Below, one piece after another: positions 1-18,969 of a DNA stretch of 23,187 nucleotides. This DNA is from a virus: UHGV virus genome UHGV-0778869; one strand, 5' to 3'. The number at the start of each line of letters is the position of its first letter. Positions within the stretch are counted from its first letter, which is position 1. The notes below the pieces were generated by a model that saw only the letters and a list, made by a program, of their open reading frames with translations, searched no databases and had not been told where the DNA came from. A program made the translations under genes and the position numbers.

Positions 1-280
1 AGCCAGTGATTGACGTTTCCACGCTCTGATAAGCCATCAATCATCATTTGCTCATGGTTCCACGTACAGCTCGGAACCAGGGGAATGTGATTAATTCCAG
101 ACATTCGACGTTCTCTGTACCGCGATCAACCAAATCGCCCACCGAGATAAGCAGGTCTTTTTTGGTGTCGAATCCTATCGTCTCCAGTTTTTTCATCAGG
201 TTCGTGTAGCATCCGTGCAGATCGCCAACTACCCAAACATTTCGGTATTTGCTGCCATCAATTCTTTCGTAATAGCGCAT
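1..280 (-). pseudogene. NinI-type Ser/Thr protein phosphatase (calcineurin-like), interrupted by a -1 frameshift
   Basis: Start ATG 280-278; product [25 protein letters not shown]...GDLVDRG...FRAVRG then TMSK-stop at 46-44. The adjacent frame reads [20 protein letters not shown] to the window edge, i.e. the GNHE motif and the rest of the enzyme are out of frame. Confidence 0.8.
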
Positions 281-464
281 CTCTTTCACTCCATCCGCGA
301 TGAACCATGAGAACGTCGTTGACGATGGCGTGCATTTTCCCGTCTTTATCATCAACGTATTTTCTTACCGTGCCGCGACTACATTTCAGTCTGCGTGCTA
401 CTTCTGTCTGGTTTCCGTATGCTTCAACGAGCATGTCTGGAATGGTTTTTACTGAGAACGTCAT
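258..464 (-). CDS. ninH: NinH (68 aa)
   Basis: Product [37 protein letters not shown]... matches lambda NinH as recalled; 23-nt overlap with the phosphatase start as in lambda. Confidence 0.9.
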
Positions 465-1072
465 GCGGCCTCACTTCTGCTATTTCGCAGGTCTTTGAGT
501 TTCTGTTGGTACTCTGCCTTGATCGCCTTGCACTCTTCGATAGTCCAGCGATGGCGGCTATGGTTTGATTCGATTTCGTCTACTGCTTCCTGCCCGATGC
601 GGTTAATCAGTTCGACGCGATACGGAACGAGATTTCCGCTTTTGTGCTGGTTGCACACCACGCATTGCTTGTGAATATTGCGTTCATCAAATCGGAGTTG
701 AGGTGCCGCAGCAGTTGTCCGGTAATGTCCGGCATCCCACTGAGCAGACGTGAGCGTTCCGCACGAGATACATGGTAAGTCGCGGTCTCTTTCTCTGATG
801 AAGGCGTTTACGGCTTGTTGGGCTTGTTTAATCCAGTAACTGCGGGGCTTTAAGGCGAGTTTTCGAATCTTAAGTTTATCTTTCTGTTTCTGATCCTCTC
901 GTCGTCGTTTCTTCTCTGCTGCTTTTTCCGCTTTTTCGCGTTCTTTACTTCGTCGTTCGAGTGCTATCTTTGTTCCACACTCTGGAGAGCACCACCACTG
1001 ATTAGCGAATGCAGGGTGAAACCATTCCCGACATTCATTGTTTTTACATCGTCTTCGCGCTGGTTTAGCCAT
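461..1072 (-). CDS. ninG: NinG / Rap recombination-associated endonuclease (203 aa)
   Basis: Product [41 protein letters not shown]... with Cys-rich motifs, near-identical to lambda NinG as recalled; 4-nt overlap with ninH. Confidence 0.9.
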
Positions 1073-1241
1073 CGTCTTCTTCCTCGTACATTGAGCTATT
1101 CGGATCGCTCATCAGTTCTGCGCAGCAGTGCTCACACACGTGAACTTCCAGCACATGCAGCTTCTGACCGCAGTTAGCGCACGTTAAAGCTCGCTCGACG
1201 CTTTCTTTCTGGTATTGAAGGGATTGGGATGGGCTAAGCAT
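1065..1241 (-). CDS. ninF: NinF (58 aa)
   Basis: Internal ATG of ORF 1065..1298 gives [43 protein letters not shown]..., matching lambda NinF as recalled. Confidence 0.8.
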
Positions 1242-1641
1242 GGCTTTCACCATTAAAAAGTCGCTTGTAAGCATCAATGTCTCGTTTTGCTTCACCAAGC
1301 TTTCGTCTTAATTCCCTGTTTTCTGATTCAAGCTTTTCCATGTCTTGCTGGTATCGATCGCGGTGTTCTTTCCATGCTTTTTGATACGCCTTCATGTATG
1401 TCATGTTGGCCTTTCTCTTTGCCTGACGAACTGCGTGGTGGTTTTTAACAAACCAGTCAGGGTCGTTAAATGCTGCTCTGGCGCATGTATACCAATAATT
1501 TGTTGCCTCCCTGTTTAGCCAATAAATACTGATAAATGGCAACCGGATAGACACCATTTTTCGTTGTGACTCTTTCTCGCCAAACATGTGGCCTTTTTTG
1601 ATGCTAAGTCCAAATCCAGGTTGAATTAAAAGCATTGTCAT
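1234..1641 (-). CDS. Hypothetical protein (about 135 aa) between ninE and ninF; C-terminal predicted coiled coil
   Basis: ORF 1234..1677; ATG at 1641-1639 overlaps the ninE stop (ATGA); alternative ATG at 1635 has a GAGGA SD. No family recognised. Confidence 0.5.
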
Positions 1642-1814
1642 TTCCTCGCACGATGTCTTAGCCACCGGATATCCCACAGGTGAGCCGTGTAGTTGAAGGT
1701 TTTTACGTCAGATTCTTTCGGGATTGGCTTGCGTTTATTTCTGGAGCGTTTCGTTGGAAGGTATTTGCAGTTTTCGCAGATTATGTCGGTGATGCTTCGT
1801 CGCTGTCGTCTCAT
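1638..1814 (-). CDS. ninE: NinE-like small basic protein (58 aa)
   Basis: Product [58 protein letters not shown] resembles lambda NinE as recalled. Confidence 0.75.
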
Positions 1815-2341
1815 GCCGCCATCCTGACGCCCTGCCCGATCGCCATCAATGCCGCTTTGGATACGGTAGTAAACATCCGTCGAGGACTGATGAACGGTCG
1901 CCAAATCAGCAGCATGGAGCCTTTGCTGTTTCCCTTCTTCTCCAGCCCTGTCGATGGTTCGATAAAATTAATCCGTCCATCAGTGATAATACGAACTTCG
2001 TCAACACTCTCCAGAGCCTTGCTGAACCATCCGACTGACATATCCTCTGGCACAAGCATCACTACCGTCTGTCGCTGTTGTATGCACTGCTCAGCGGCTT
2101 TTTCTACCCACGGCCTGATATTGCTGTACGGTGGGTTATTCCAGATTGCACCGTGGCTTACCCACTCAGAATTGAGCGCGTCGTCGGCCTCAGTTAGCCA
2201 GTGAGCGCACAGAGCATTTTTGTCGCTCGCAGCTGAGTCCAGCCAGAATCCAAACTCAATATCCAGTGCATCAAAAAGCCAAAGCGGCGTTTGCCAGCAG
2301 TCTCTAACTTCTTTTGGTGTTTCTGATTTATGCTTAATCAT
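1811..2341 (-). CDS. Phage Dam-family DNA N6-adenine methyltransferase (176 aa)
   Basis: N-terminal [18 protein letters not shown]...LDSAAS and catalytic NPPY ([10 protein letters not shown]) motifs; ATGA overlap with the upstream HNH gene. Confidence 0.8.
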
Positions 2342-2865
2342 TCAACCCTCGCATATTGTCCGTGATATTTGTTGATAGCCTCACTGGCAACCAAACCAGC
2401 AAGCTCAAGATCTTCATAGAACCCAAAATGCAACCGGCCAAAATCTGTGCGCACTTGAACGGCCCATTTATTTTTTTGCTTGTTCCATAAAACATTTTTT
2501 ATTCCAGAACGGCTATTGCACTTAGTTTTCTGATTTCGGCTGTTTGCTATCCGGCTTGCCTCCCTAAGATTTTTTGGGGAATTGTCCAGCCTGTTTCCGT
2601 TAATATGGTCAATATTTTTCAATGGCATTCTTTTGTTGTGCAGCGCAAAAACAACTACGTGAACAAACATCTGAATGCCTGCAAAACACACCTGTCTATA
2701 CCCAGATCCATTTATCGATGTTTTAATTTCATCTCCGGCCCGGTGGCTGTGGTTGGGGTGTTTTAGCGAGTCCTTTTTGTATCTGACTGTATCTCCGTCT
2801 AAATACAGATAATCCTCAATAAGCCGATACCTATCTGACGCTGGCGTATTTGATTTGATAGTCAT
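2338..2865 (-). CDS. HNH endonuclease with AP2-like DNA-binding domain (about 175 aa)
   Basis: HINGNRLDNSPKNLREASRIANSRN motif (HNH_3 type) followed by KNKWAVQVR...GRLHFGFYEDLELAG (AP2-like); start MTIKSN at 2865 overlaps the ninB stop (ATGA). Confidence 0.75.
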   Translation of the reverse strand: MTIKSNTPASDRYRLIEDYLYLDGDTVRYKKDSLKHPNHSHRAGDEIKTSINGSGYRQVCFAGIQMFVHVVVFALHNKRMPLKNIDHINGNRLDNSPKNLREASRIANSRNQKTKCNSRSGIKNVLWNKQKNKWAVQVRTDFGRLHFGFYEDLELAGLVASEAINKYHGQYARVE

Positions 2866-3302
2866 GCAGCCCGATCTCCCCATCGCGCTTTCCATTCGAG
2901 AGCCAGTCGCGCTTCGTCTGACCACTTAACGCCACGCTCTGTACCGAATGCCTGTATAAGCTCTAATAGCTCCGCAAATTCGCTTACACGCATCCTGCTG
3001 GTTGACTGGCCTATTACCACAAAGCCATTCCCGGCAAGGTTAGGAACAACGTCCTGCTGCTTTAATGCAGCTGTAAAAACGCACTTCCAGCTTTCTGCAT
3101 CCAGCCAGCGACCATGCCATTCAACCTGACGAGAGACGTCACCAAGGCAAGCCCAAAGCTTTCGATTCTGGTCTAAGCTGCGGTTGCGTTCCTGAATGGT
3201 TACTACGATTGGTTTGGTTGGGTCTGGAAGGATTTGCTGTACTGCGTGAATAGCATTTTGCTGAAGTGCTGGAGATCGAATTTCAAAGGTCAGTTTTTTC
3301 AT
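2862..3302 (-). CDS. ninB: NinB / Orf recombination mediator (146 aa)
   Basis: From internal ATG at 3302: MKKLTFEIRSPALQQNAIHAVQQILPDPTKPIVVTIQERNRSLDQNRKLWACLGDV..., near-identical to lambda NinB as recalled; SD GAGAGGGAAG upstream. Confidence 0.9.
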   Translation of the reverse strand: MKKLTFEIRSPALQQNAIHAVQQILPDPTKPIVVTIQERNRSLDQNRKLWACLGDVSRQVEWHGRWLDAESWKCVFTAALKQQDVVPNLAGNGFVVIGQSTSRMRVSEFAELLELIQAFGTERGVKWSDEARLALEWKARWGDRAA

Positions 3303-3316
3303 GACTTCCCTCTCCC

Positions 3317-3350
3317 CCAAATAAAAAGGCCTGCGATTACCAGCAGGCCT
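3317..3350 (-). terminator. Intrinsic terminator between helicase and ninB (tR2-like position)
   Basis: On minus strand: stem AGGCCTGC (3350-3343) / GCAGGCCT (3334-3327), 8-nt loop, then TTTTATTTGG. Confidence 0.7.
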
Positions 3351-3378
3351 GTTACAAGCTCAGTGATGTAGATGGTCA

Positions 3379-4815
3379 TCAGAATCCTCCTTTCTTCTTG
3401 GACTGCGGTTCCTCGCGTTCACGGCGGCGCATTTCAGCAGACTGTTGGTCTGTGTCATAAATAGCGCCATTTGCCTGAATGCAATACACCGTGCCGGTAT
3501 TGCCATGACGATTGAGACGAAGGATTAGTTCTGTTTCACCAGGTGGAACACTGTCATCAAAAGCACCTTCACGATGGATCCCCACCCAATAATCGCAATC
3601 CTGTTCAATCTGCCCTGTATCGCGCGAGTCACTTGGTAATGGGCGTTTATTGGTTCTGCTTTCCAGTGCGCGGTTAAGCTGTGTCAGAAGCACAACAACG
3701 CAATCAAGCTCTTTGGCAAGGTTCTTCAGTCCTTTGGTGATCATGCCGTAAGCAAGGTCGTTGCGATCGGCCTTCTCAGCGGTCATTAGTGTCAGGTAAT
3801 CGACCAGAATCATGCCAACACATCCTTTTTCTCGCTTGATTCGACGGCTTTCGCTGACGATTTGAGCCAGAGATAATCCCGGCGTGTCGTCGATGTATAG
3901 CAGGTCGATTTCACTCAAGCGATTGGCTGTTTCGATCGCCCTGTTGAAGTCACCATCGTAATCACCCTGATAGCCGTCATCAGCGTCATTTGTCGCCGGA
4001 AGGTAAAAAATATTCGGGTTAACACCTGACTTCTGTCCTACCAGTTTTTCCAGTATCTGGTCGCCTGGCATTTCAAGGCTGAACATCAGAGCGGGCTTTT
4101 TCTCATGCACTGCGCAGTTGATTGCCATCTGGCTGTATAGCGTCGTTTTCCCCATCTTAGGGCGAGCGCCAATGACAAACAGAGAGCCTTTCACCAGGCC
4201 TTTCGGTGACAGCATCCTGTCCAGCGATGGGATCCCTGTGCTCATTCCTCGTTGTTCGCCTGACGGATCAAATCGCTTCTCAAGGTCGCTAACCCAGTCT
4301 TCCATGACCTCACCAAATGAGCGAAGGCCGCGACGCGATCCGGTTTTTGCATGGTCTGTCAGTTGCGTGAAAATCGCCTGAATAGCTTCGTACTTCTGCG
4401 TTGCAGTCATTCCGTTGCGGGAATAGAGCAATTCCGTCGCTTCAGTCATGCGGTTGATGGCGTAGCGTTCCATTGCGGTTTCACGAACCTGCATTGCATA
4501 GGCAACGATGTTTGCTGCGCTTGGCGTGTTCTTTGCGATCTCAGCGATATAAGCAAAACCGCCAACAGACGCCGTTAACGATTTACGCTCCAGTTCATCG
4601 AAAAGCGTCAGGCCATCTACTGGCTTTTGCTCACGGTGCATTCTGGTTATTTCTTCGAAAATGATTTTGTGTGGTCGGCTGTAAAATGAATCAGGCTTCA
4701 GCATCGCCAGAACTTTCTGGACGCGCTCACTGCTGTCATCATCCAGAAGCAATCCACCAATCACCGCCTGCTCTGCCTCGATGCTATGGGGCGGCGCATA
4801 AAAATTATCGGTCAT
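3379..4815 (-). CDS. DnaB-type replicative helicase (P22 gene 12-like)
   Basis: ATG at 4815 with GAGGG SD; N-terminal SIEAEQAVIGGLLLD (DnaB N-domain), Walker A GARPKMGKTT, Walker B ILVDYLTLM; overlaps the O-like gene end by 11 nt. Confidence 0.85.
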   Translation of the reverse strand: MTDNFYAPPHSIEAEQAVIGGLLLDDDSSERVQKVLAMLKPDSFYSRPHKIIFEEITRMHREQKPVDGLTLFDELERKSLTASVGGFAYIAEIAKNTPSAANIVAYAMQVRETAMERYAINRMTEATELLYSRNGMTATQKYEAIQAIFTQLTDHAKTGSRRGLRSFGEVMEDWVSDLEKRFDPSGEQRGMSTGIPSLDRMLSPKGLVKGSLFVIGARPKMGKTTLYSQMAINCAVHEKKPALMFSLEMPGDQILEKLVGQKSGVNPNIFYLPATNDADDGYQGDYDGDFNRAIETANRLSEIDLLYIDDTPGLSLAQIVSESRRIKREKGCVGMILVDYLTLMTAEKADRNDLAYGMITKGLKNLAKELDCVVVLLTQLNRALESRTNKRPLPSDSRDTGQIEQDCDYWVGIHREGAFDDSVPPGETELILRLNRHGNTGTVYCIQANGAIYDTDQQSAEMRRREREEPQSKKKGGF

Positions 4816-5632
4816 CGTGTTCACCCTCACGAACTTTCAGGTAGGTATTATCGTTAAGCAGGAAATCAAATCCCTTTTTGTGCCAGACGGTTCCGCGTTG
4901 ATGGTTTTGGCGTTCTTCGAACATCCATCGGCAATTTTCGCCTACGTAGCTCAAATAATTTCTCCAGTCCTGCATCGTGAACCCATGCCCGTCAAGCTGG
5001 CGGGTTATCACTCCGGCTTTGCGCCAGAACGTTCGGATCTGGTTTTTACGCTTGTCATTCAGTGCGCGGATTCTTGGCGCTTCAGGAAGGATTTCGTGGT
5101 AAGCATCGACAACATCCTGACAGCTGACGGAAGGTTTTTTCTTGTCAGACTTTTTGTCTGCTGTGGCACTCTCTAATACGTCAGTATTAGAGATATTATT
5201 TATATTATTGTTTATGGACAACCGTTGGACAACCGTTGGACAATATCCGCTGAGAGCCGCGCCATCACTGGTGTTTGCGTTGGACAACTGTTGGACAACC
5301 GTTGGACAATTTTTTGCCTGAAAATCGTCATATTTAACGATTGTAAACAGGCTAAATTTCTTCCCCATCGAGCAAATATTAAGCATACCTTTCGACTCAA
5401 AAGTCCGTAATAAGCTCCGAACTTTGTTGTCGGGGATGAATGTTTCTCTGACCAGTGATGGGCGTCCAGTTATCATCTGACCGCGATCAACAGTTATCGG
5501 ACCGATATCCGTATTGACGACAGTAGATTCGTGATTAGCCTTGAGGATTAAGTGAAGCCAAAGATGTACTGCCTGAGAGTCCTTATAGAGCCTGCTGTCC
5601 ATAAACTGGCGGTGTATAGAGACATACCCCAT
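4805..5632 (-). CDS. Lambda O-like replication initiator containing the origin iterons
   Basis: Start at ATG 5632 (AGGAGG SD) or 5695 (AGGAG SD); iteron-encoded CPTVVQQLS repeats in the middle; C-terminal region resembles lambdoid O proteins. Confidence 0.75.
   Translation of the reverse strand: MGYVSIHRQFMDSRLYKDSQAVHLWLHLILKANHESTVVNTDIGPITVDRGQMITGRPSLVRETFIPDNKVRSLLRTFESKGMLNICSMGKKFSLFTIVKYDDFQAKNCPTVVQQLSNANTSDGAALSGYCPTVVQRLSINNNINNISNTDVLESATADKKSDKKKPSVSCQDVVDAYHEILPEAPRIRALNDKRKNQIRTFWRKAGVITRQLDGHGFTMQDWRNYLSYVGENCRWMFEERQNHQRGTVWHKKGFDFLLNDNTYLKVREGEHDDR
5213..5310. repeat. Origin iterons: six copies of 11-bp GTTGGACAAC(C/T) in two triplets (5213-5244, 5279-5310) separated by 34 bp, next to an AT-rich tract (5181-5212)
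   Basis: Direct tandem repeats read in the sequence, inside the O-like gene as in lambdoid ori. Confidence 0.8.
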
Positions 5633-5681
5633 ACTGGATGCCTCCTGATGTTGTACAGGGTTATGCCTGTAATCAGCTAAC

Positions 5682-5843
5682 TTAACGACGCCCATGTTTC
5701 ACTCCTGCTTTGGCTAGTCTGTAAACACCAACAAGGCGCTCTGCGAACGCCCTGTTATTTGCTGCGGCTACCACTAATCCCTCAGGTGAATCAGGGTGTC
5801 GAATCTCTTCTTTTTCCTGGTATTTCTTACGACGTTTTGTCAT
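5682..5843 (-). CDS. Hypothetical small basic protein (53 aa) between the cII-like and O-like genes
   Basis: ATG 5843-5841 preceded by AGGAG; MTKRRKKYQEKEEIRHPDSPEGLVVAAANNRAFAERLVGVYRLAKAGVKHGRR. Below the ORF-track size cut-off; found by hand. Confidence 0.4.
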   Translation of the reverse strand: MTKRRKKYQEKEEIRHPDSPEGLVVAAANNRAFAERLVGVYRLAKAGVKHGRR

Positions 5844-5877
5844 AATTACTCCTGTGGATTGATCCAGTCTTTCTACA

Positions 5878-6156
5878 TCAGGCCTCGAAGAATTCGCCGT
5901 TCTTCGGGGCTTTTTCTTTTGTCAGCATTCTGGCTACTTTCTTAGCCAGTTCCGCCAACTCCTCGTCTTCAACACCCCATTCAAGAACAGCAAGAAGCAT
6001 TCCCATTTTGGGGATGAAGCTGTCTTTCCATCGCGAAATTTGCGATTCATTAATCCCTAACGCGTCGGCAACCTTTCGCTGACCACGTACAGCAATTCGA
6101 TTCAGGATGTTGCTTGTAATTGCATTCGCTTTCTTGCGAGTACTTGTAAGTTGCAT
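5878..6156 (-). CDS. cII: CII-like transcriptional activator (P22 C1-like, 92 aa)
   Basis: SQISRWK and MLLAVLEWGV motifs shared with lambda CII; position between cro and O. Confidence 0.85.
   Translation of the reverse strand: MQLTSTRKKANAITSNILNRIAVRGQRKVADALGINESQISRWKDSFIPKMGMLLAVLEWGVEDEELAELAKKVARMLTKEKAPKNGEFFEA
6119..6132 (+). promoter_or_regulatory. Candidate pRE CII-binding site TTGC-N6-TTGC (TTGCTTGTAATTGC)
   Basis: Tandem TTGC tetrads 6 bp apart on the cI-sense strand inside the first codons of the cII-like gene, the lambda pRE arrangement. Confidence 0.6.
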
Positions 6157-8517: not shown

Positions 8518-8742
8518 ATGAATCAGACATACATTCCATCATGCTTGAGAAATCTGCCAAAGCAGAAAGCAAAGCCCCGCAAGCAAGCCATAAAGGACGC
8601 TAAGGCAGAGGTTATTGATCAAGCAATACAATTGCTCAGGGAGGAGTTAAGAAGTGGCAAGCTCGAAGGAATGATGATGCCCTATCAGCGCGGATATCTT
8701 TCGGCGATTAGTAAGCTGGAAGTATTGAAGAGTGAATTATGA
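8518..8742 (+). CDS. Hypothetical protein (74 aa)
   Basis: ATG 8518 after AGGTAAG; MNQTYIPSCLRNLPKQKAKPRKQ...; ATGA overlap with the next gene. No family recognised. Confidence 0.5.
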   Translation: MNQTYIPSCLRNLPKQKAKPRKQAIKDAKAEVIDQAIQLLREELRSGKLEGMMMPYQRGYLSAISKLEVLKSEL

Positions 8743-9431
8743 ACTATCTGGAATTTCCGGATGGTTCATTGTTTTGGCAGCAAACCACTTATTTGAGAGG
8801 AATTAATATGTCATCAATCCGCTTAACTACGAGAATGAAAGAGAAAATCGCTCGTAACGCTTTAATTAAGTCTGGGGTTTTCACTGAGCTTGAAGAAGTA
8901 ACAAAGTTAAAGAGCCAGCTTGCACTTGACGCCAGAGTTATTGCGTTTGGCGGTAAAAAGAAAACTGAGGAAGTGGATCAGTTATCATCCAAGTTAGTAG
9001 CTATAAGTGAAGAACTTGAAAAACTGGGATGTTCATTTTACTCATACGATGTTCGTTCTACTTCAATTTATCTGACTGTATCTGGCAGAAGGGTTGGATG
9101 GCTTTCATATGGGGAAGACGGCAACGGCGAAGATATATTGCTCCCTACTCCGACCAAAGATAAATGCATGTTTGACGCAGAACACGAAATAACAAAAAGG
9201 TTTGATGAAATCTGCGCATTGCAACAAAAACTTGAAGCCAAGAAAAAGGATATCGAATCAAATGTATGGGCTGCTTTGAACTCAGTCACAACAGTTAAGC
9301 GACTTATTGAAGTTTGGTCTGAAAGCAAAGAATTGCTACCAAAAGAAGCAGATAAAGCAAGTACAGCACTTCCTGCTTTACGGGTAGAAGATTTGAATAA
9401 GATGATTGGACTTCCTTCCGAGGCCGCATAG
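8739..9431 (+). CDS. Hypothetical protein (230 aa; alternative start 8808)
   Basis: ORF with coupled start; internal ATG 8808 has a GAGAGG SD; stop lies inside the terminator hairpin. No family recognised. Confidence 0.55.
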   Translation: MNYLEFPDGSLFWQQTTYLRGINMSSIRLTTRMKEKIARNALIKSGVFTELEEVTKLKSQLALDARVIAFGGKKKTEEVDQLSSKLVAISEELEKLGCSFYSYDVRSTSIYLTVSGRRVGWLSYGEDGNGEDILLPTPTKDKCMFDAEHEITKRFDEICALQQKLEAKKKDIESNVWAALNSVTTVKRLIEVWSESKELLPKEADKASTALPALRVEDLNKMIGLPSEAA

Positions 9432-9448: not shown

Positions 9449-9565
9449 CACTAACAACAGAATAAACACAGCACTGTGTATTCATTCCAACGAGTGAATA
9501 CACGGAGCAATGTCGCTCGTAACTAAACAGGAGCCGACTTGTTCTGATTATTGGAAATCTTCTTT

Positions 9566-9594
9566 GCCCTCCAGTGTGAGGGCAATTTTTTTTG
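9566..9594 (+). terminator. Intrinsic terminator immediately upstream of the next gene's RBS
   Basis: Stem GCCCTC / GAGGGC with loop CAGTGT, then AATTTTTTTTG; GGAGG SD follows at 9597. Confidence 0.7.
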
Positions 9595-9605
9595 ATGGAG
9601 GATAT

Positions 9606-10574
9606 ATGAGTGAAGTAACAGATTTAGTTGTTATTGAAAAAGCAAATGCAATGACTGTATTTCAGTCTGCCGACCAGATTGAAGAAATCCTTCAAAAGGT
9701 TGAACGTGAAGTTATGTCCTTTGTGCCTGATATCACAACGGCAAAGGGCAGAAAGGAGATCGCTTCTCTGGCGTATAAAGTTGCGCAGACGAAAACATAT
9801 CTCGATGGTCTTGGCAAAGACCTTGTTGCTGAACTGAAGGAAATTCCAAAGCTAATTGATGCCAACCGCAAGACAGTGCGTGATCGCCTTGATGAGCTGA
9901 AAGCCAAGGCGCGCCAGCCTCTTACTGATTATGAGGAGGAACAGGCACGGATTAAAGCCGAAGAAGAAGCTAAGGCAGCAGCTGAAGCTCTCGCAAAGCA
10001 AATTGAGTCTGACCATGAAATAGCGATTTTGATGGATCGCGAATTTGACCGCCAAAGAGAAGAGGCAAGACTCAAAGCGGAGCAGGAAAAGCGAGAGCAT
10101 GAAGAACGCTTAAAAAGAGAAGCTGAAGAGAAAGCCAGAGCAGAAGCCGAAGCAAAGGCAAAAGCCGAAATTGAAGCAGCAGCAAGGCGAGAAGCAGAAG
10201 CTAAGGCCGCAGCGGAACGTGCAGAGCGTGAACGTATTGAAGCCGAGCAACGAGCACAGCGCGAAGCAAAAGAGGCAGCAGAACGAGCTGAAAGAGAAAA
10301 GCAGGCGGCAATTGAAGCAGAACGCCGAAAAGCACAGGAGGAGGCTGAACGAATCCGGCGCGAGGCTGAAGCAAAAGAGCAAGCAAGAATAGCAGAAGAA
10401 AAAAGAATCAAGGACGAAGAAGAGCGTAGAGCAAAGGATAAAGCTCACCGGAAAGAAGTAAATAACAAAATACTTGCTGACCTTATCAAGGTTGGCGCAT
10501 CAGAAGATGTTGCTAAAAATATCATAACAGCCATCGTAAAAGGCGAAGTATTCGCAACAAAAATAACCTACTAA
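9606..10574 (+). CDS. Hypothetical protein (322 aa): N-terminal globular domain, long Glu/Ala/Lys/Arg-rich coiled-coil, short C-terminal domain
   Basis: ATG 9606 with GGAGG SD; the low-complexity centre (EAEAKAKAEIEAAARREAEAK...) generates several spurious antisense ORFs; sits upstream of the Sak4-like gene. Confidence 0.7.
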   Translation: MSEVTDLVVIEKANAMTVFQSADQIEEILQKVEREVMSFVPDITTAKGRKEIASLAYKVAQTKTYLDGLGKDLVAELKEIPKLIDANRKTVRDRLDELKAKARQPLTDYEEEQARIKAEEEAKAAAEALAKQIESDHEIAILMDREFDRQREEARLKAEQEKREHEERLKREAEEKARAEAEAKAKAEIEAAARREAEAKAAAERAERERIEAEQRAQREAKEAAERAEREKQAAIEAERRKAQEEAERIRREAEAKEQARIAEEKRIKDEEERRAKDKAHRKEVNNKILADLIKVGASEDVAKNIITAIVKGEVFATKITY

Positions 10575-16781: not shown

Positions 16782-18848
16782 TTATTGGAATGAAATACTG
16801 CACTCCATTTCAGTTGGTGACCCTGTATTGCTGTACGTTACAATAGTCCATGAGGTTGCAGATACCTTGTTTACGACCATGTATCTCCCAGTTCCTGGTG
16901 ACGTAAATGTATATCCTGCAGTCGACATGTCTGTCGGAAATGTTATCACCCAAACACCAGGTGATGTTTTGGATGCTAAGCATCCAACTGCTGATAACAG
17001 AACTCCTGAGCTATTTATATTTACAACACATGGTGAGTTTATAATCTTAACAACACCTGTATCAAGTATGTATGTATCAAACACTTTACCTATTCTGTTG
17101 CCATTTAGGTATGTAACTGCTGTTGCTGACAATCCAGCCCTGTTCCTTAAAACAGTTGAAACTCCAAGCCCTGAGCAATTAGTTACTTGCTGATCTGATA
17201 CCATTCCTGAAGTTGAACTAAATTGCTCCATAATTGCATCAACGGTATTTGACCCATTAAAGCAGTTGAATGAAACGTTCTCTAACTTATTCCTTCTCAC
17301 TGACTTTCCTGAGTCAGATCTAACGTTGCAGATTCTGTTGTACTGCCCTGGAGTGTTTATTTGTACAAATCCACCTCTTATCTTGTTGTCAAGACAGTCT
17401 GTTAATGATTCGCTATGGTCGTATAAATCATACGCTCTTTTAAAATCACCATTATTATTCATGAAGATTAAAACATCTTCTATGAGATTGTTACTACAAC
17501 CTTGAATAGCTATCACGCTATCATTACCATTAAAAGCACCATTTGCGATACTGGTAAATTTACCGCCAACAATCTTGCAGTTAGTGCATCCGCGTGAGAA
17601 CTTAATGTTATTGTTACCACCTATAGCGCCATCGACATTCCCAAGAACTGATGAATTATGAATTCCTTCACAGTTTATGAACTGAAAATCAGTAGTAGGA
17701 AATCCAATACCGTCAGCAGAAGTAGCATGATAATTAACAAGCAGCCCGTTTTCTGCGTATCCTCCCTGAACAAACCCACCCTTAACTCCAAGTATCTCCA
17801 TGTTACCACCGGCCTTAGATTGTCCTATAAACCTTGGCATGGTTATCTCAGGGTCAATAGCGCCGATAACGACAAAGTTACCATGGTTAGCTCCCTTATG
17901 ACCGGTTCCATCAAAGGTGCATCTAATGGCCCTTATCTTTGATCGTCTAGTTGAATCAGCAGATCCGTAAGAAGTATTTCCCATTCTTAATGGCGTCACA
18001 TCTGAATCACCATTGAAATACAGATCTCTTACTTCTATATTATTCCCTGTTAATTCTATTGCACCAAAGCTCTTATTAAACAATGATCCTGTCAAAGTTA
18101 TTCTAGCCTGATTGATGGCTAATATTTTTTTATTGTCAAGGCTTGATATTACGTTATTTGTTATTTTTACATTTATATCTATGTAAATCTCATCAAAATA
18201 TATTAACAACATACTGATTAGTGATGTTATATCACTGTCAGGTGATGTCCAGTCGCTAATTTTTGTGCTTCTAGACCGTGTTCTTTTTTCAAGATAACAA
18301 GTTACCCCGCCAATCACTGCGGAGTTTTGACTCAATGACGATATTGTTCCGCTTGCTGGAGGTGATATATAAAATAATCCAAATTCAGTGTGAATATCTG
18401 TTGTACCAACAGGAATAATATCTCCAACCTTTGCCGTAGCTCTTACATCATTAGGGAATACAACCCCTGGCAATATTTCGTCACGCATTTCATTGACGTA
18501 TACTCTTAACTGGTCAGGGTCATACTTCAACACATTAGGAAAATAGAACTGCTGCGCACCATATGCATCATAAACAGCCATCGAATGACCTTGCACGGTA
18601 ACGAATTTGGCAATCTGTCCGTTATATACCGGGTAACCAGCAGCGTTAATGATGATTGGTTGCGAAACAGGAACGTGAGAACCGTCTTCGTTCTCCACAT
18701 AAACCTGAATCTGGTTTTCAGGATTTACCGGATCCGTGTCAATTTTACCGATATAAATTTTGCCATTGGCTACGGCTTTAAAAGAACGAGCCATAGTGAA
18801 GAGTTGCGAAGGCATGCTTACCACAACATTTGCGGTGATATCTGACAT
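16782..18848 (-). CDS. Tailspike protein: P22-type N-terminal head-binding domain fused to a distinct beta-helix receptor-binding domain (about 688 aa)
   Basis: ATG 18848 with GGAG SD; N-terminus [43 protein letters not shown]...NVLKYDPDQ parallels P22 gp9 residues 1-110; the rest is Gly/Asn-rich repeats typical of right-handed beta-helix depolymerases and unlike P22 gp9. Confidence 0.85.
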
Positions 18849-18969
18849 TTCATTGCTCCAGACGAATGATATGATGCAACCATGATGTGATTGCATACCG
18901 AAATGGTACTATTGAGTATTTATCCAGTAGGTTACGATGCCATTCCACCCAACTGGTGAGGCATCAAGG

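What the first reader, a model, noticed from the sequence alone, without database searches (positions are those of the whole stretch)
1811..2865. HNH endonuclease plus Dam-type methyltransferase pair in the ninC position
Between ninB and ninE, where lambda has ninC, this phage has a translationally coupled HNH/AP2 endonuclease and an N6-adenine methyltransferase. An extra coiled-coil ORF (1234-1641) also sits between ninE and ninF. The methyltransferase may protect phage DNA from host restriction or from the adjacent nuclease; the HNH may be a homing enzyme or part of packaging.
Basis: partly seen in the sequence, partly recalled or inferred. Interest (0 to 1): 0.4.

Follow-up and report, generated by a model that had tools for sequence, protein, structure and literature searches.

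The report
Selfish HNH nuclease inserted into phage dam
A common phage GATC methylase gene has a rare, probably mobile HNH "homing" nuclease gene inserted in its first codons; the two are neighbours by parasitism rather than partners, and the case is tidy but ordinary.

Summary
On the minus strand, ninB (3302-2862), an HNH gene (2865-2338), a Dam-family methyltransferase gene (2341-1811), ninE (1814-1638) and a coiled-coil ORF (1641-1234) are all joined by ATGA stop/start overlaps.

The Dam protein is 97% identical to VT2-Sakai Dam (M.EcoVT2Dam, a GATC enzyme). It is the normal occupant of this slot. Its uninterrupted 5' end occurs in 1,508 of 5,426 complete E. coli genomes.

The HNH gene occurs in only 34 of those genomes and in none of 50,697 phage records. 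When present it is always at the same site. Phage ECP1 has the same ninB-dam sequence without it.

The insertion lies inside dam. The HNH gene reuses dam's first 26 nt as its own start and brings 39 nt of replacement dam 5' end.

It occurs behind four different upstream contexts, once directly after a second, unrelated HNH gene. There are also disrupted copies and deletion scars.

The protein has an I-HmuI-like HNH domain followed by an AP2-like DNA-binding domain.

Best reading: a free-standing homing endonuclease gene that targets the dam 5' end. It is not a nuclease/methylase pair and not a packaging nuclease. Cleavage and homing are inferred, not shown. I class it as a new member of a known kind.

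The parts
2862..3302 (-). ninB (146 aa). Its stop codon overlaps the HNH start codon (ATGA at 2865-2862).
   Evidence: Pfam NinB E 2.6e-54; sequence read; same 441-nt gene in ECP1.
2338..2865 (-). HNH-AP2 endonuclease gene (175 aa), the putative free-standing homing endonuclease.
   Evidence: Pfam HNH_3 E 4.6e-11. PHROG 99 HNH endonuclease E 6e-43. Family profile hits I-HmuI 1U3E at E 6e-8. AF2 model pLDDT 89. Foldseek top hit I-HmuI.
2840..2865 (-). First 26 nt of the HNH gene (ATGACTATCAAATCAAATACGCCAGC). They are identical to the first 26 nt of uninterrupted (type-1) dam, so this is the captured start of the target gene.
   Evidence: Alignments with ECP1 and VT2-Sakai. Residues 1-8 are outside any secondary-structure element and residues 1-3 have pLDDT below 50 in the model.
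2536..2667 (-). HNH_3 catalytic core (residues 67-110), including H69, D86-H87, N99 and N108.
   Evidence: Pfam stretch 67-110. These positions are invariant columns in the 39-sequence alignment. They align with the I-HmuI motif.
2353..2505 (-). AP2-like DNA-binding domain (about residues 121-171; three strands then a helix).
   Evidence: Family profile hits the AP2 domains of WRI1 (E 1e-7), TEM1 (E 6e-6) and ERF1 (E 0.017). 16 of 39 homologues hit Pfam AP2. Model superposes on TEM1 AP2 at rmsd 1.5-1.8 A over 45-51 residues. Pfam AP2 does not hit this sequence directly.
2303..2839 (-). The inserted cassette as defined by comparison with empty sites: 537 nt (HNH body plus replacement dam 5' end) in place of 10 nt (ACACGACAAG) of type-1 dam. 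Boundaries are good to about 2 nt.
   Evidence: Alignments A1 and A2 and junction listings.
2303..2341 (-). Replacement (type-2) dam 5' end, 39 nt encoding [13 protein letters not shown]. It travels with the HNH gene.
   Evidence: Found in 50 places in E. coli genomes against 43 places for the HNH. Diversity pi 0.0036 against 0.020 in the dam body. It resembles the dam start next to the 78%-identical HNH of L036, while the rest of that dam is about 45% identical.
1811..2341 (-). Orphan Dam-family N6-adenine methyltransferase (176 aa). NPPY motif at 2137-2126.
   Evidence: Pfam PF05869 E 8e-66. TIGR01712 equivalog. 166/172 residues identical to VT2-Sakai Dam, an enzyme reported to target GATC (PMC6602927, citing Radlinska and Bujnicki 2001).
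1638..1814 (-). ninE, ATGA-coupled to dam.
   Evidence: Pfam NinE E 2e-43; sequence read.
1234..1641 (-). Coiled-coil ORF (135 aa) in the variable slot between ninE and ninF. It is not part of the HNH element.
   Evidence: PHROG 1511, unknown function, E 9e-86. Present in ECP1 and P27. Most HNH-positive loci do not match this segment.
3327..3350 (-). Terminator-like hairpin followed by a T run, just upstream of ninB. It marks the start of the coupled ninB-HNH-dam-ninE block.
   Evidence: Consensus scan only.

Best explanation
The two genes are not a functional pair.

Dam is the ordinary orphan GATC N6-adenine methyltransferase found in many lambdoid and Stx phages (M.EcoVT2Dam type).

The HNH gene is a free-standing homing endonuclease gene of the HNH-AP2 kind. 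It has inserted about 26 nt into the dam coding sequence. It avoids inactivating dam in three ways:
- It reuses dam's own start codon, its first 9 codons and its ATGA coupling to ninB for its own translation.
- It ends in a new Shine-Dalgarno-like sequence and ATGA overlap (GAGGGTTGAATGA).
- It supplies 13 replacement N-terminal codons, so that dam resumes at the conserved DCWQTP motif.

Inferred mechanism: the gene is transcribed with the delayed-early nin operon. In a cell that also holds a related phage or prophage with an uninterrupted type-1 ninB-dam junction, the enzyme nicks or cuts at or near that junction. Recombinational repair from the HNH-bearing genome then copies in the HNH gene together with the short replacement dam 5' end (co-conversion). 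The occupied allele would be immune because the site is split and its right half is replaced. Copies that are no longer spreading decay or are deleted.

Shown here: the anatomy, the presence/absence pattern, the linkage of the replacement 5' end, the degenerate copies and scars, the domain architecture and the intact catalytic residues.

Inferred: the cleavage activity, the identity of the target site, and present-day homing.
For: **Anatomy**
- ECP1 matches the 2.2-kb query at 98% identity except for the 528-nt HNH gene.
- The HNH gene's first 26 nt equal the dam start of ECP1 and VT2-Sakai. The dam gene downstream has a different 39-nt 5' end up to GACTGCTGG.

**Distribution**
- The HNH gene is in 34 of 5,426 E. 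coli genomes (43 places), always ninB|HNH|dam.
- The empty type-1 site is in 1,508 genomes (2,025 places).
- No phage record encodes this protein above 60% identity.

**Several backgrounds**
- The HNH follows type-1 ninB, type-2 ninB, a third ninB type with a GTG start, and the P27-type HNH in tandem.
- Three of these contexts have matching empty alleles: ECP1, VT2-Sakai and P27.

**Diversity**
- pi is 0.008 in the HNH gene and 0.0036 in the replacement 5' end, against 0.020 in the dam body.
- Dam bodies from HNH-positive and HNH-negative loci are intermixed.

**Cassette ancestry**
- A 78%-identical HNH (L036) also sits directly upstream of a dam gene.
- That dam matches ours at 15 of its first 19 residues but is only about 45% identical overall.
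- Nucleotide identity drops at the cassette boundary.

**Selection**
- dN/dS against L036 is about 0.09.
- Within the population there are 6 synonymous and 17 non-synonymous changes, including nonsense changes.

**Decay and loss**
- L019 has a G121 stop codon, L022 has two 1-nt deletions, and L023 is truncated at the 5' end.
- E. coli E2 retains a 14-codon scar. E308 and L3Cip3 have a ninB ending in the HNH's last codons (...RVE*).

**Protein**
- HNH_3 domain with invariant H69, D86-H87, N99 and N108.
- The family profile hits I-HmuI and plant AP2 domains. The structure model agrees.
- HNH-AP2 proteins are a recognised family of homing endonuclease genes (PMC10448857, citing Magnani 2004).
Against: - No cleavage, target-site or homing data exist for this protein or any close relative.
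- Lambdoid phages are highly mosaic, so ordinary homologous recombination at the conserved ninB and dam flanks could spread the cassette without nuclease action.
- Within the population the non-synonymous to synonymous ratio is near neutral, and 3 of 17 IMG/VR loci are defective (one further locus, L025, is cut off by its contig end). Many present-day copies may therefore be inactive.
- The element is rare (about 2% of sites), which is not what a strongly driving element would show.
- The conserved adjacency to dam in two lineages could also be read as a functional link.
Confidence: 0.72

Rival explanations
1. Passive mosaic module. The HNH gene is an inert or decaying passenger that spreads only by ordinary homologous recombination between the conserved ninB and dam flanks of lambdoid phages. 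Nuclease-driven gene conversion plays no part.
For: Lambdoid nin regions are strongly mosaic. The element is rare, at 34 of 5,426 genomes. Within-population substitutions are 17 non-synonymous to 6 synonymous, and defective copies exist.
Against: Long-term dN/dS of about 0.09 against the 78%-identical relative shows the protein has been under selection. Catalytic residues are intact. The same cassette, with identical boundaries, sits behind four upstream contexts. Its diversity is 2.5 times lower than that of the dam gene it sits in. A second, unrelated HNH gene targets the same 40-bp junction.
Confidence: 0.17
2. Functional nuclease/methylase pair, similar to a restriction-modification or toxin-antidote module. 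Dam methylation would protect the phage's own DNA from the adjacent HNH nuclease, which would attack unmethylated competitor or host DNA.
For: The genes are adjacent and translationally coupled. A 78%-identical HNH is also directly upstream of a dam gene in an unrelated phage. A GATC lies 12-15 nt upstream of the junction in type-1 ninB.
Against: Dam occurs without the HNH in 1,508 genomes and with it in 34. Homologues of the HNH sit in contexts without a methylase. PADLOC's best matches are an orphan methyltransferase and a homing endonuclease. E. coli hosts already methylate GATC (established knowledge; PMC6602927). The upstream GATC is kept in the occupied alleles with type-1 ninB and is absent from some variants. 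The adjacency is explained by the insertion site lying inside dam.
Confidence: 0.05
3. Packaging-associated HNH. The nuclease would assist terminase in genome cutting, like HK97 gp74.
For: Only that some phage HNH proteins have this role (mentioned in PMC11855218).
Against: The gene lies in the early nin operon between ninB and dam, not next to a terminase gene. It has the I-HmuI-like HNH_3 plus AP2 architecture. The phage is P22-like, with a P22 head-binding tailspike and an injectosome protein; that type packages by the headful (established knowledge). About 98% of related phages lack the gene.
Confidence: 0.02

Closest known systems
M.EcoVT2Dam (Dam of Stx2 phage VT2-Sakai; Pfam PF05869, TIGR01712)
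   Same: 166 of 172 aligned residues are identical, the NPPY motif is present, and it holds the same position after ninB and before ninE. It is reported to be GATC-specific (PMC6602927, citing Radlinska and Bujnicki 2001).
   Different: The first 12 residues differ ([12 protein letters not shown] instead of MTIKSNTPAHD), because the 5' end was replaced together with the HNH insertion.
HNH-AP2 homing endonuclease genes (Magnani et al. 2004; the IPA-HNH genes of vibriophage ICP1, PMC10448857)
   Same: N-terminal HNH domain and C-terminal AP2 DNA-binding domain. Sporadic distribution at boundaries of genetic exchange between related phages.
   Different: It is in a temperate lambdoid/P22-like phage. 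The AP2 domain is too divergent for the Pfam model. The gene is inserted inside a coding sequence and shares that gene's start.
I-HmuI (PDB 1U3E), the intron-encoded HNH nicking endonuclease of Bacillus phage SPO1
   Same: Best match by both sequence profile and fold for the N-terminal and catalytic part. The DH...N...N motif is conserved.
   Different: I-HmuI is encoded in an intron and has NUMOD-type C-terminal DNA-binding modules. This protein is free-standing and has an AP2 domain. Overall TM-score is only 0.40.
Free-standing Seg and Mob endonucleases of T4 (intronless homing, marker exclusion; PMC2988022, PMC2790892)
   Same: The endonuclease gene lies between or at the edge of conserved genes, is present in some relatives and absent in others, and flanking sequence is co-converted.
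   Different: Those genes sit in intergenic positions with their own starts. This one borrows the target gene's first 9 codons and supplies a substitute 5' end. Activity here is untested.
ShiLan-domain hidden HNH inserted in an actinophage DNA methylase gene (PMC11855218)
   Same: An HNH homing element whose home site is a phage methylase gene and which leaves the methylase reading frame usable.
   Different: ShiLan is an internal insertion read through in the methylase frame, with the HNH in another frame. Here the methylase is re-started downstream of a separate, coupled HNH ORF.
P27-type NUMOD4-HNH_3 gene of Stx phages (vB_EcoS_P27 gp36)
   Same: It occupies the same ninB/dam junction in 77 of 5,426 E. 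coli genomes. It also captures a neighbour's end: its C-terminus KARWGDSAA matches the ninB tail (KARWGDRAA).
   Different: It is unrelated outside the HNH motif (31% identity over 58 residues). It inserts about 35 bp upstream, in the 3' end of ninB, and leaves the type-1 dam start intact.

Membership tests
Phage N6-adenine methyltransferase (Pfam PF05869 Dam / TIGR01712 / M.EcoVT2Dam) | Score above the curated family thresholds | tested here: met
   PF05869 221 bits against a cut-off of 28.1. TIGR01712 equivalog 263.9 bits against 97.05.
Phage N6-adenine methyltransferase (Pfam PF05869 Dam / TIGR01712 / M.EcoVT2Dam) | Catalytic (D/N)PPY motif | tested here: met
   NPPY at residues 69-72, window 2137-2126.
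Phage N6-adenine methyltransferase (Pfam PF05869 Dam / TIGR01712 / M.EcoVT2Dam) | Near-identity to the characterised enzyme | tested here: met
   166/172 residues identical to VT2-Sakai Dam.
Phage N6-adenine methyltransferase (Pfam PF05869 Dam / TIGR01712 / M.EcoVT2Dam) | m6A methylation of GATC | not testable with these tools
   Known only from the literature for the VT2 enzyme (PMC6602927). It would need SMRT or nanopore sequencing of phage DNA grown in a dam-negative host.
HNH_3 / I-HmuI-like beta-beta-alpha-metal nucleases | Pfam HNH_3 above the gathering score | tested here: met
   42.6 bits against 24.8, residues 67-110.
HNH_3 / I-HmuI-like beta-beta-alpha-metal nucleases | Conserved catalytic His and metal or structural Asn residues | tested here: met
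   H69, D86-H87, N99 and N108 are invariant columns in 39 homologues. They align with the I-HmuI motif DHKDGN...NL...N.
HNH_3 / I-HmuI-like beta-beta-alpha-metal nucleases | Fold similarity to a solved member | tested here: met
   AF2 model pLDDT 89. Foldseek top hit 1U3E, E 8.9e-4, probability 1.00, but TM-score only 0.40.
HNH_3 / I-HmuI-like beta-beta-alpha-metal nucleases | Nuclease activity | not testable with these tools
   Needs an in vitro assay.
HNH-AP2 homing endonuclease genes | C-terminal AP2 domain detected by Pfam on the protein itself | tested here: not met
   No PF00847 hit at E<=10, either for the whole protein or for the C-terminal 60 residues.
HNH-AP2 homing endonuclease genes | C-terminal AP2 domain detected through the family profile, homologues or structure | tested here: met
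   Profile hits WRI1 (1e-7), TEM1 (6e-6) and ERF1 (0.017). 16 of 39 aligned homologues hit PF00847. Model superposes on TEM1 AP2 at rmsd 1.5-1.8 A.
Free-standing homing endonuclease gene (functional class) | Sporadic presence or absence at one site among close relatives | tested here: met
   43 occupied places against 2,025 empty type-1 places in E. coli genomes. ECP1 is identical apart from the insert.
Free-standing homing endonuclease gene (functional class) | The same element with the same boundaries in different genomic backgrounds | tested here: met
   Four upstream contexts. Dam bodies are as diverse as the whole population.
Free-standing homing endonuclease gene (functional class) | Co-conversion of flanking sequence | tested here: inconclusive
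   The 39-nt replacement dam 5' end is tightly linked to the HNH and shares its ancestry. The conversion process itself was not observed.
Free-standing homing endonuclease gene (functional class) | The occupied allele lacks the cleavage site | tested here: inconclusive
   The insertion splits the type-1 sequence and replaces its right half. The recognition site is unknown.
Free-standing homing endonuclease gene (functional class) | Site-specific cleavage of the empty allele and biased inheritance in crosses | not testable with these tools
   Needs biochemistry and phage crosses.
Restriction-modification-like nuclease/methylase pair | The two genes are inherited together | tested here: not met
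   Dam occurs without the HNH in 1,508 genomes and with it in 34. Homologues of the HNH occur without a methylase.
Terminase-associated HNH (HK97 gp74 type) | Gene lies next to terminase or portal genes at the packaging end of the genome | tested here: not met
   Its neighbours are ninB and dam in the early-right operon.

The most novel reading that the evidence does not exclude
The most novel reading not excluded is as follows.

This is an active homing endonuclease that invades a protein-coding gene without an intron or an intein, by a start-swap. It takes over the target's start codon, first codons and translational coupling, and carries a substitute 5' coding end that restarts the target gene downstream.

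Together with the unrelated P27-type HNH, which does the mirror-image thing to the 3' end of ninB, it would make the 40-bp ninB/dam junction a contested homing site. Through that site, lambdoid and Stx phages and co-resident prophages would convert and exclude each other's nin-region alleles.
Probability: 0.4. Interest if true: 0.5.

Novelty: new member of a known kind. Interest (0 to 1): 0.3.

Why it matters
- **Annotation.** An HNH gene next to a methylase gene in a lambdoid nin region should not be read as a restriction-modification-like or defence pair.
- **A natural series for study.** The data include empty, occupied, doubly occupied, decayed and scarred alleles of one homing site. The site lies in experimentally tractable temperate coliphages, including Stx phages.
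- **Experiments this enables.** Homing, co-conversion tract length and phage-phage or prophage-phage competition could be measured with standard lambda genetics.
- **Mechanism.** The start-codon capture plus replacement 5' end shows how a homing gene can sit inside a coding sequence without splicing.

Tried and rejected
- **Pfam AP2 on the protein and on its C-terminal 60 residues.** No hit even at E<=10. The AP2 assignment therefore rests on the profile and the structure model.
- **Single-sequence search of the PDB.** Only a chance match at E 0.94.
- **NCBIfam.** No family for either HNH protein.
- **Scan of GTDB representative genomes for the HNH.** One distant locus at 39% identity. The element is too rare to appear in species representatives.
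- **Phage collection (INPHARED).** No record encodes this HNH above 60% identity, so its context had to come from E. coli genomes and IMG/VR.
- **Whole-window search.** No complete E. coli genome covers more than 48% of the window, so the source genome was not identified.
- **Defence-system membership.** Considered and rejected. PADLOC gives only 'homing endonuclease' (E 7e-4) and 'orphan methyltransferase'.
- **The GATC 12-15 nt upstream of the junction as a link between Dam and the HNH.** Considered and rejected. It is retained in the occupied alleles with type-1 ninB and is missing from some variants.
- **Gene conversion between two co-resident prophages in strain Br_190_kylling.** Suggestive only. 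The shared tract is 99.7% identical against 98.3% in the neighbouring helicase gene.
Full report
**1. What is there**

All genes in window 1-6156 lie on the minus strand. They form the early-right operon of a lambdoid phage:
- a cII-like gene
- a replication gene
- a DnaB-type helicase gene (4830-3379)
- a terminator-like hairpin (3350-3327)
- ninB (3302-2862)
- an HNH gene (2865-2338)
- a Dam-family methyltransferase gene (2341-1811)
- ninE (1814-1638)
- a 135-aa coiled-coil ORF (1641-1234)
- ninF, ninG, ninH and the start of ninI

ninB, the HNH gene, dam, ninE and the coiled-coil ORF are joined by four ATGA stop/start overlaps. The scan finds no promoter-like or terminator-like site between the HNH gene and dam.

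The rest of the window shows a P22-like phage in vegetative gene order. It has a tailspike with the P22 head-binding domain, an injectosome protein, a lambda-type integrase and an S24 repressor. No complete E. coli genome covers more than 48% of the window.

**2. The methyltransferase is ordinary**

The protein scores 221 bits on Pfam PF05869 and 264 bits on the NCBIfam equivalog TIGR01712. It has an NPPY motif.

It is 166/172 identical to the Dam of Stx2 phage VT2-Sakai. That enzyme is listed as the orphan GATC methylase M.EcoVT2Dam (PMC6602927, citing Radlinska and Bujnicki 2001).

A 60-nt probe for the uninterrupted 5' end of this dam gene finds 2,025 places in 1,508 of 5,426 complete E. 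coli genomes. Every listed full-length match abuts ninB.

Dam is a slot of its own rather than a ninC replacement. E. coli E308 has the order ninB-dam-ninC-ninD-ninE.

**3. The HNH gene is a rare insertion inside dam**

The 528-nt HNH gene occurs in only 34 of 5,426 genomes (43 places), always between ninB and dam. No record in a collection of 50,697 phage genomes encodes it above 60% protein identity.

Phage ECP1 matches the 2.2-kb query at 98% identity except for exactly this gene.

Base-level alignment defines the insertion:
- The first 26 nt of the HNH gene (ATGACTATCAAATCAAATACGCCAGC) are the first 26 nt of the uninterrupted dam gene of ECP1 and VT2-Sakai.
- Next come 537 nt that replace 10 nt of that dam gene.
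- The last 39 of those 537 nt (ATGATTAAGCAT...GTTAGA, encoding [13 protein letters not shown]) are a substitute dam 5' end. It rejoins the common sequence at GACTGCTGG, the conserved DCWQTP motif.

So the HNH gene uses dam's start codon, its first nine codons and its coupling to ninB. It restores dam with a new Shine-Dalgarno-like sequence, a new ATGA overlap and a new N-terminus.

In the structure model, residues 1-8 lie outside any secondary-structure element and residues 1-3 have pLDDT below 50. This fits a tolerated fusion.

**4. Evidence that the cassette moves**

*Upstream contexts.* In 17 IMG/VR loci carrying the HNH at 97-100% identity, plus the RefSeq genomes, the cassette follows four different upstream contexts:
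- type-1 ninB
- type-2 ninB
- a third ninB type, where the HNH start codon is GTG
- a different HNH gene, in tandem (L011)

For three of these contexts a matching empty allele exists: ECP1, VT2-Sakai and P27.

*Diversity.* Nucleotide diversity is 0.008 in the HNH gene and 0.0036 in the replacement 5' end, but 0.020 in the dam body. Dam bodies from HNH-positive and HNH-negative loci are intermixed. A young, uniform cassette therefore sits on backgrounds as diverse as the whole population.

*A more distant relative.* A 78%-identical HNH from a metagenome assembly (L036) lies between a DUF1367 gene and a dam gene. That dam is only about 45% identical to ours, yet its first 19 residues (MIKHKSQTPIESRDCWRTP) match our replacement 5' end at 15 of 19 positions. 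Nucleotide identity falls from about 75-84% to about 50% at the cassette boundary. The replacement 5' end therefore shares the HNH's ancestry, as a co-conversion tract would.

*Selection.* Between the two lineages dN/dS is about 0.09 (dN 0.15, dS 1.6). Within the population the changes are 6 synonymous and 17 non-synonymous.

*Decay and loss.*
- L019 has a nonsense codon at G121, L022 has two 1-nt deletions, and L023 is truncated at the 5' end.
- E. coli E2 keeps a 14-codon scar (MTINKYHGQYVRVE) formed across a CTATCAA microhomology.
- E308 and L3Cip3 have a ninB that ends in the HNH's last codons (...RVE*), followed by the replacement dam start.
- Seven of the 50 places with the replacement 5' end lack the HNH.

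Long-term constraint, local decay and loss are what the homing-gene life cycle predicts.

**5. The protein**

- Pfam HNH_3 hits residues 67-110.
- H69, D86-H87, N99 and N108 are invariant among 39 homologues.
- A profile of the family hits the homing endonuclease I-HmuI (1U3E, E 6e-8) with its N-terminal part. Its C-terminal part hits the plant AP2 domains of WRI1 (1e-7), TEM1 (6e-6) and ERF1 (0.017).
- 16 of 39 homologues hit Pfam AP2 individually. The window protein does not.
- The AlphaFold model (pLDDT 89) has I-HmuI as its best PDB match. Its last 50 residues superpose on TEM1 AP2 at 1.5-1.8 A.
- HNH-AP2 proteins are a recognised class of homing endonuclease genes in phages (PMC10448857, citing Magnani et al. 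2004).
- More distant homologues sit in unrelated places: next to holin genes in Jersey-like Salmonella phages, in up to 10 places per genome in T5-like phages, and just upstream of ninG in an Stx1 phage.

**6. Interpretation**

The best-supported reading is a free-standing homing endonuclease gene whose home site is the 5' end of phage dam. Dam is the host gene of the parasite, not its partner. Free-standing endonucleases, co-conversion and marker exclusion are established for T4 (PMC2988022, PMC2790892). An HNH element homing into an actinophage methylase gene has also been described (PMC11855218).

Cleavage, target identity and present-day mobility are inferred, not shown.

Three rivals were considered:
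- **Passive spread by ordinary recombination.** This cannot be excluded. It fits poorly with the long-term purifying selection, the constant boundaries in four contexts, and a second nuclease gene at the same junction.
- **A protective nuclease/methylase pair.** This is contradicted by the 1,508 to 34 distribution and by PADLOC's best matches, an orphan methyltransferase and a homing endonuclease.
- **A packaging role.** This is contradicted by the gene's position, its family and the phage type.

**7. A contested junction**

Stx phage P27 and 77 of 5,426 E. coli genomes carry an unrelated NUMOD4-HNH_3 gene about 35 bp upstream of our insertion point, in the 3' end of ninB. Its C-terminus (KARWGDSAA) matches the tail of ninB (KARWGDRAA), and it leaves the type-1 dam start intact. 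L011 carries both nuclease genes in tandem.

In strain Br_190_kylling two different co-resident prophages share a 2.66-kb tract at 99.7% identity. The tract contains an additional upstream HNH-AP2 gene, ninB, our HNH and dam. One of the two prophages has a third HNH-AP2 gene between ninF and ninG.

**8. Verdict**

The methylase is already known. The HNH is a new member of a known kind. The start-capture and 5'-end-replacement architecture is a modest new twist. Interest is moderate to low (0.3).

The coiled-coil ORF (PHROG 1511, unknown function) is an unrelated occupant of the variable slot between ninE and ninF.

Noticed in passing
L011 1975-4055 (IMGVR_UViG_2703719355_000002): Two unrelated HNH genes lie in tandem at one junction: ninB, a P27-type NUMOD4-HNH (whose C-terminus matches the ninB tail), the HNH-AP2 of this finding, then dam.
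   Followed up: partly
L037 2534-5197 and L038 (E. coli Br_190_kylling NZ_CP182387.1, about 1.529 Mb and 3.514 Mb): Two different co-resident lambdoid prophages share a 2,664-bp tract at 99.7% identity. It holds an upstream 203-aa HNH-AP2 gene, a small ORF, ninB, the HNH of this finding and dam. One prophage has a third HNH-AP2 gene (188 aa) between ninF and ninG. This may reflect gene conversion between prophages. Nine of the 34 HNH-positive genomes carry two copies.
   Followed up: partly
L006 about 1463-1504 (E. coli E2); L004 and L005 about 1490-1504 (E308, L3Cip3): These are deletion scars of the HNH gene. E2 has a 14-codon mini-ORF (MTINKYHGQYVRVE) that still bridges ninB and dam with ATGA overlaps. 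E308 and L3Cip3 have ninB alleles ending in the HNH's last codons (...RVE*).
   Followed up: partly
L003 2402-3007 (Stx1 phage AU6Stx1): An HNH-AP2 gene (201 aa, 38% identical to the window's HNH) overlaps the start of ninG. This is a further nuclease insertion point in nin regions.
   Followed up: no
window 3327-3350 (-): A GC-rich hairpin followed by a T run (AGGCCTGCTGGTAATCGCAGGCCT TTTTATTT) lies just upstream of ninB, in the position of lambda's tR2-type terminator.
   Followed up: no
window 9510-10574 (+): A 354-aa ORF with a long Glu/Ala/Lys/Arg-rich coiled-coil segment. It causes an extreme purine skew (AT skew 0.60, GC skew 0.24 at 10001-10500). Similar loci are annotated 'TolA'.
   Followed up: no
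window 8739-9431 (+): An Nmad5 protein (PF18757, E 9e-69), a nucleotide-modification-associated domain, lies in the early-left operon. It may be a second nucleic-acid modification function in the same phage.
   Followed up: no
window 16782-18896 (-): A tailspike gene with a P22 head-binding domain. Its distal part lies in the lowest-GC stretch of the window (GC 0.34-0.43 against about 0.47 in the early-right operon). This suggests a recently exchanged receptor-binding module.
   Followed up: no
window 1234-1641 (-): The coiled-coil ORF between ninE and ninF (PHROG 1511, unknown function) is shared with ECP1 and P27. In other relatives the same slot holds NinX/DUF2591, a Dcm-type methylase or an antirepressor gene.
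   Followed up: partly
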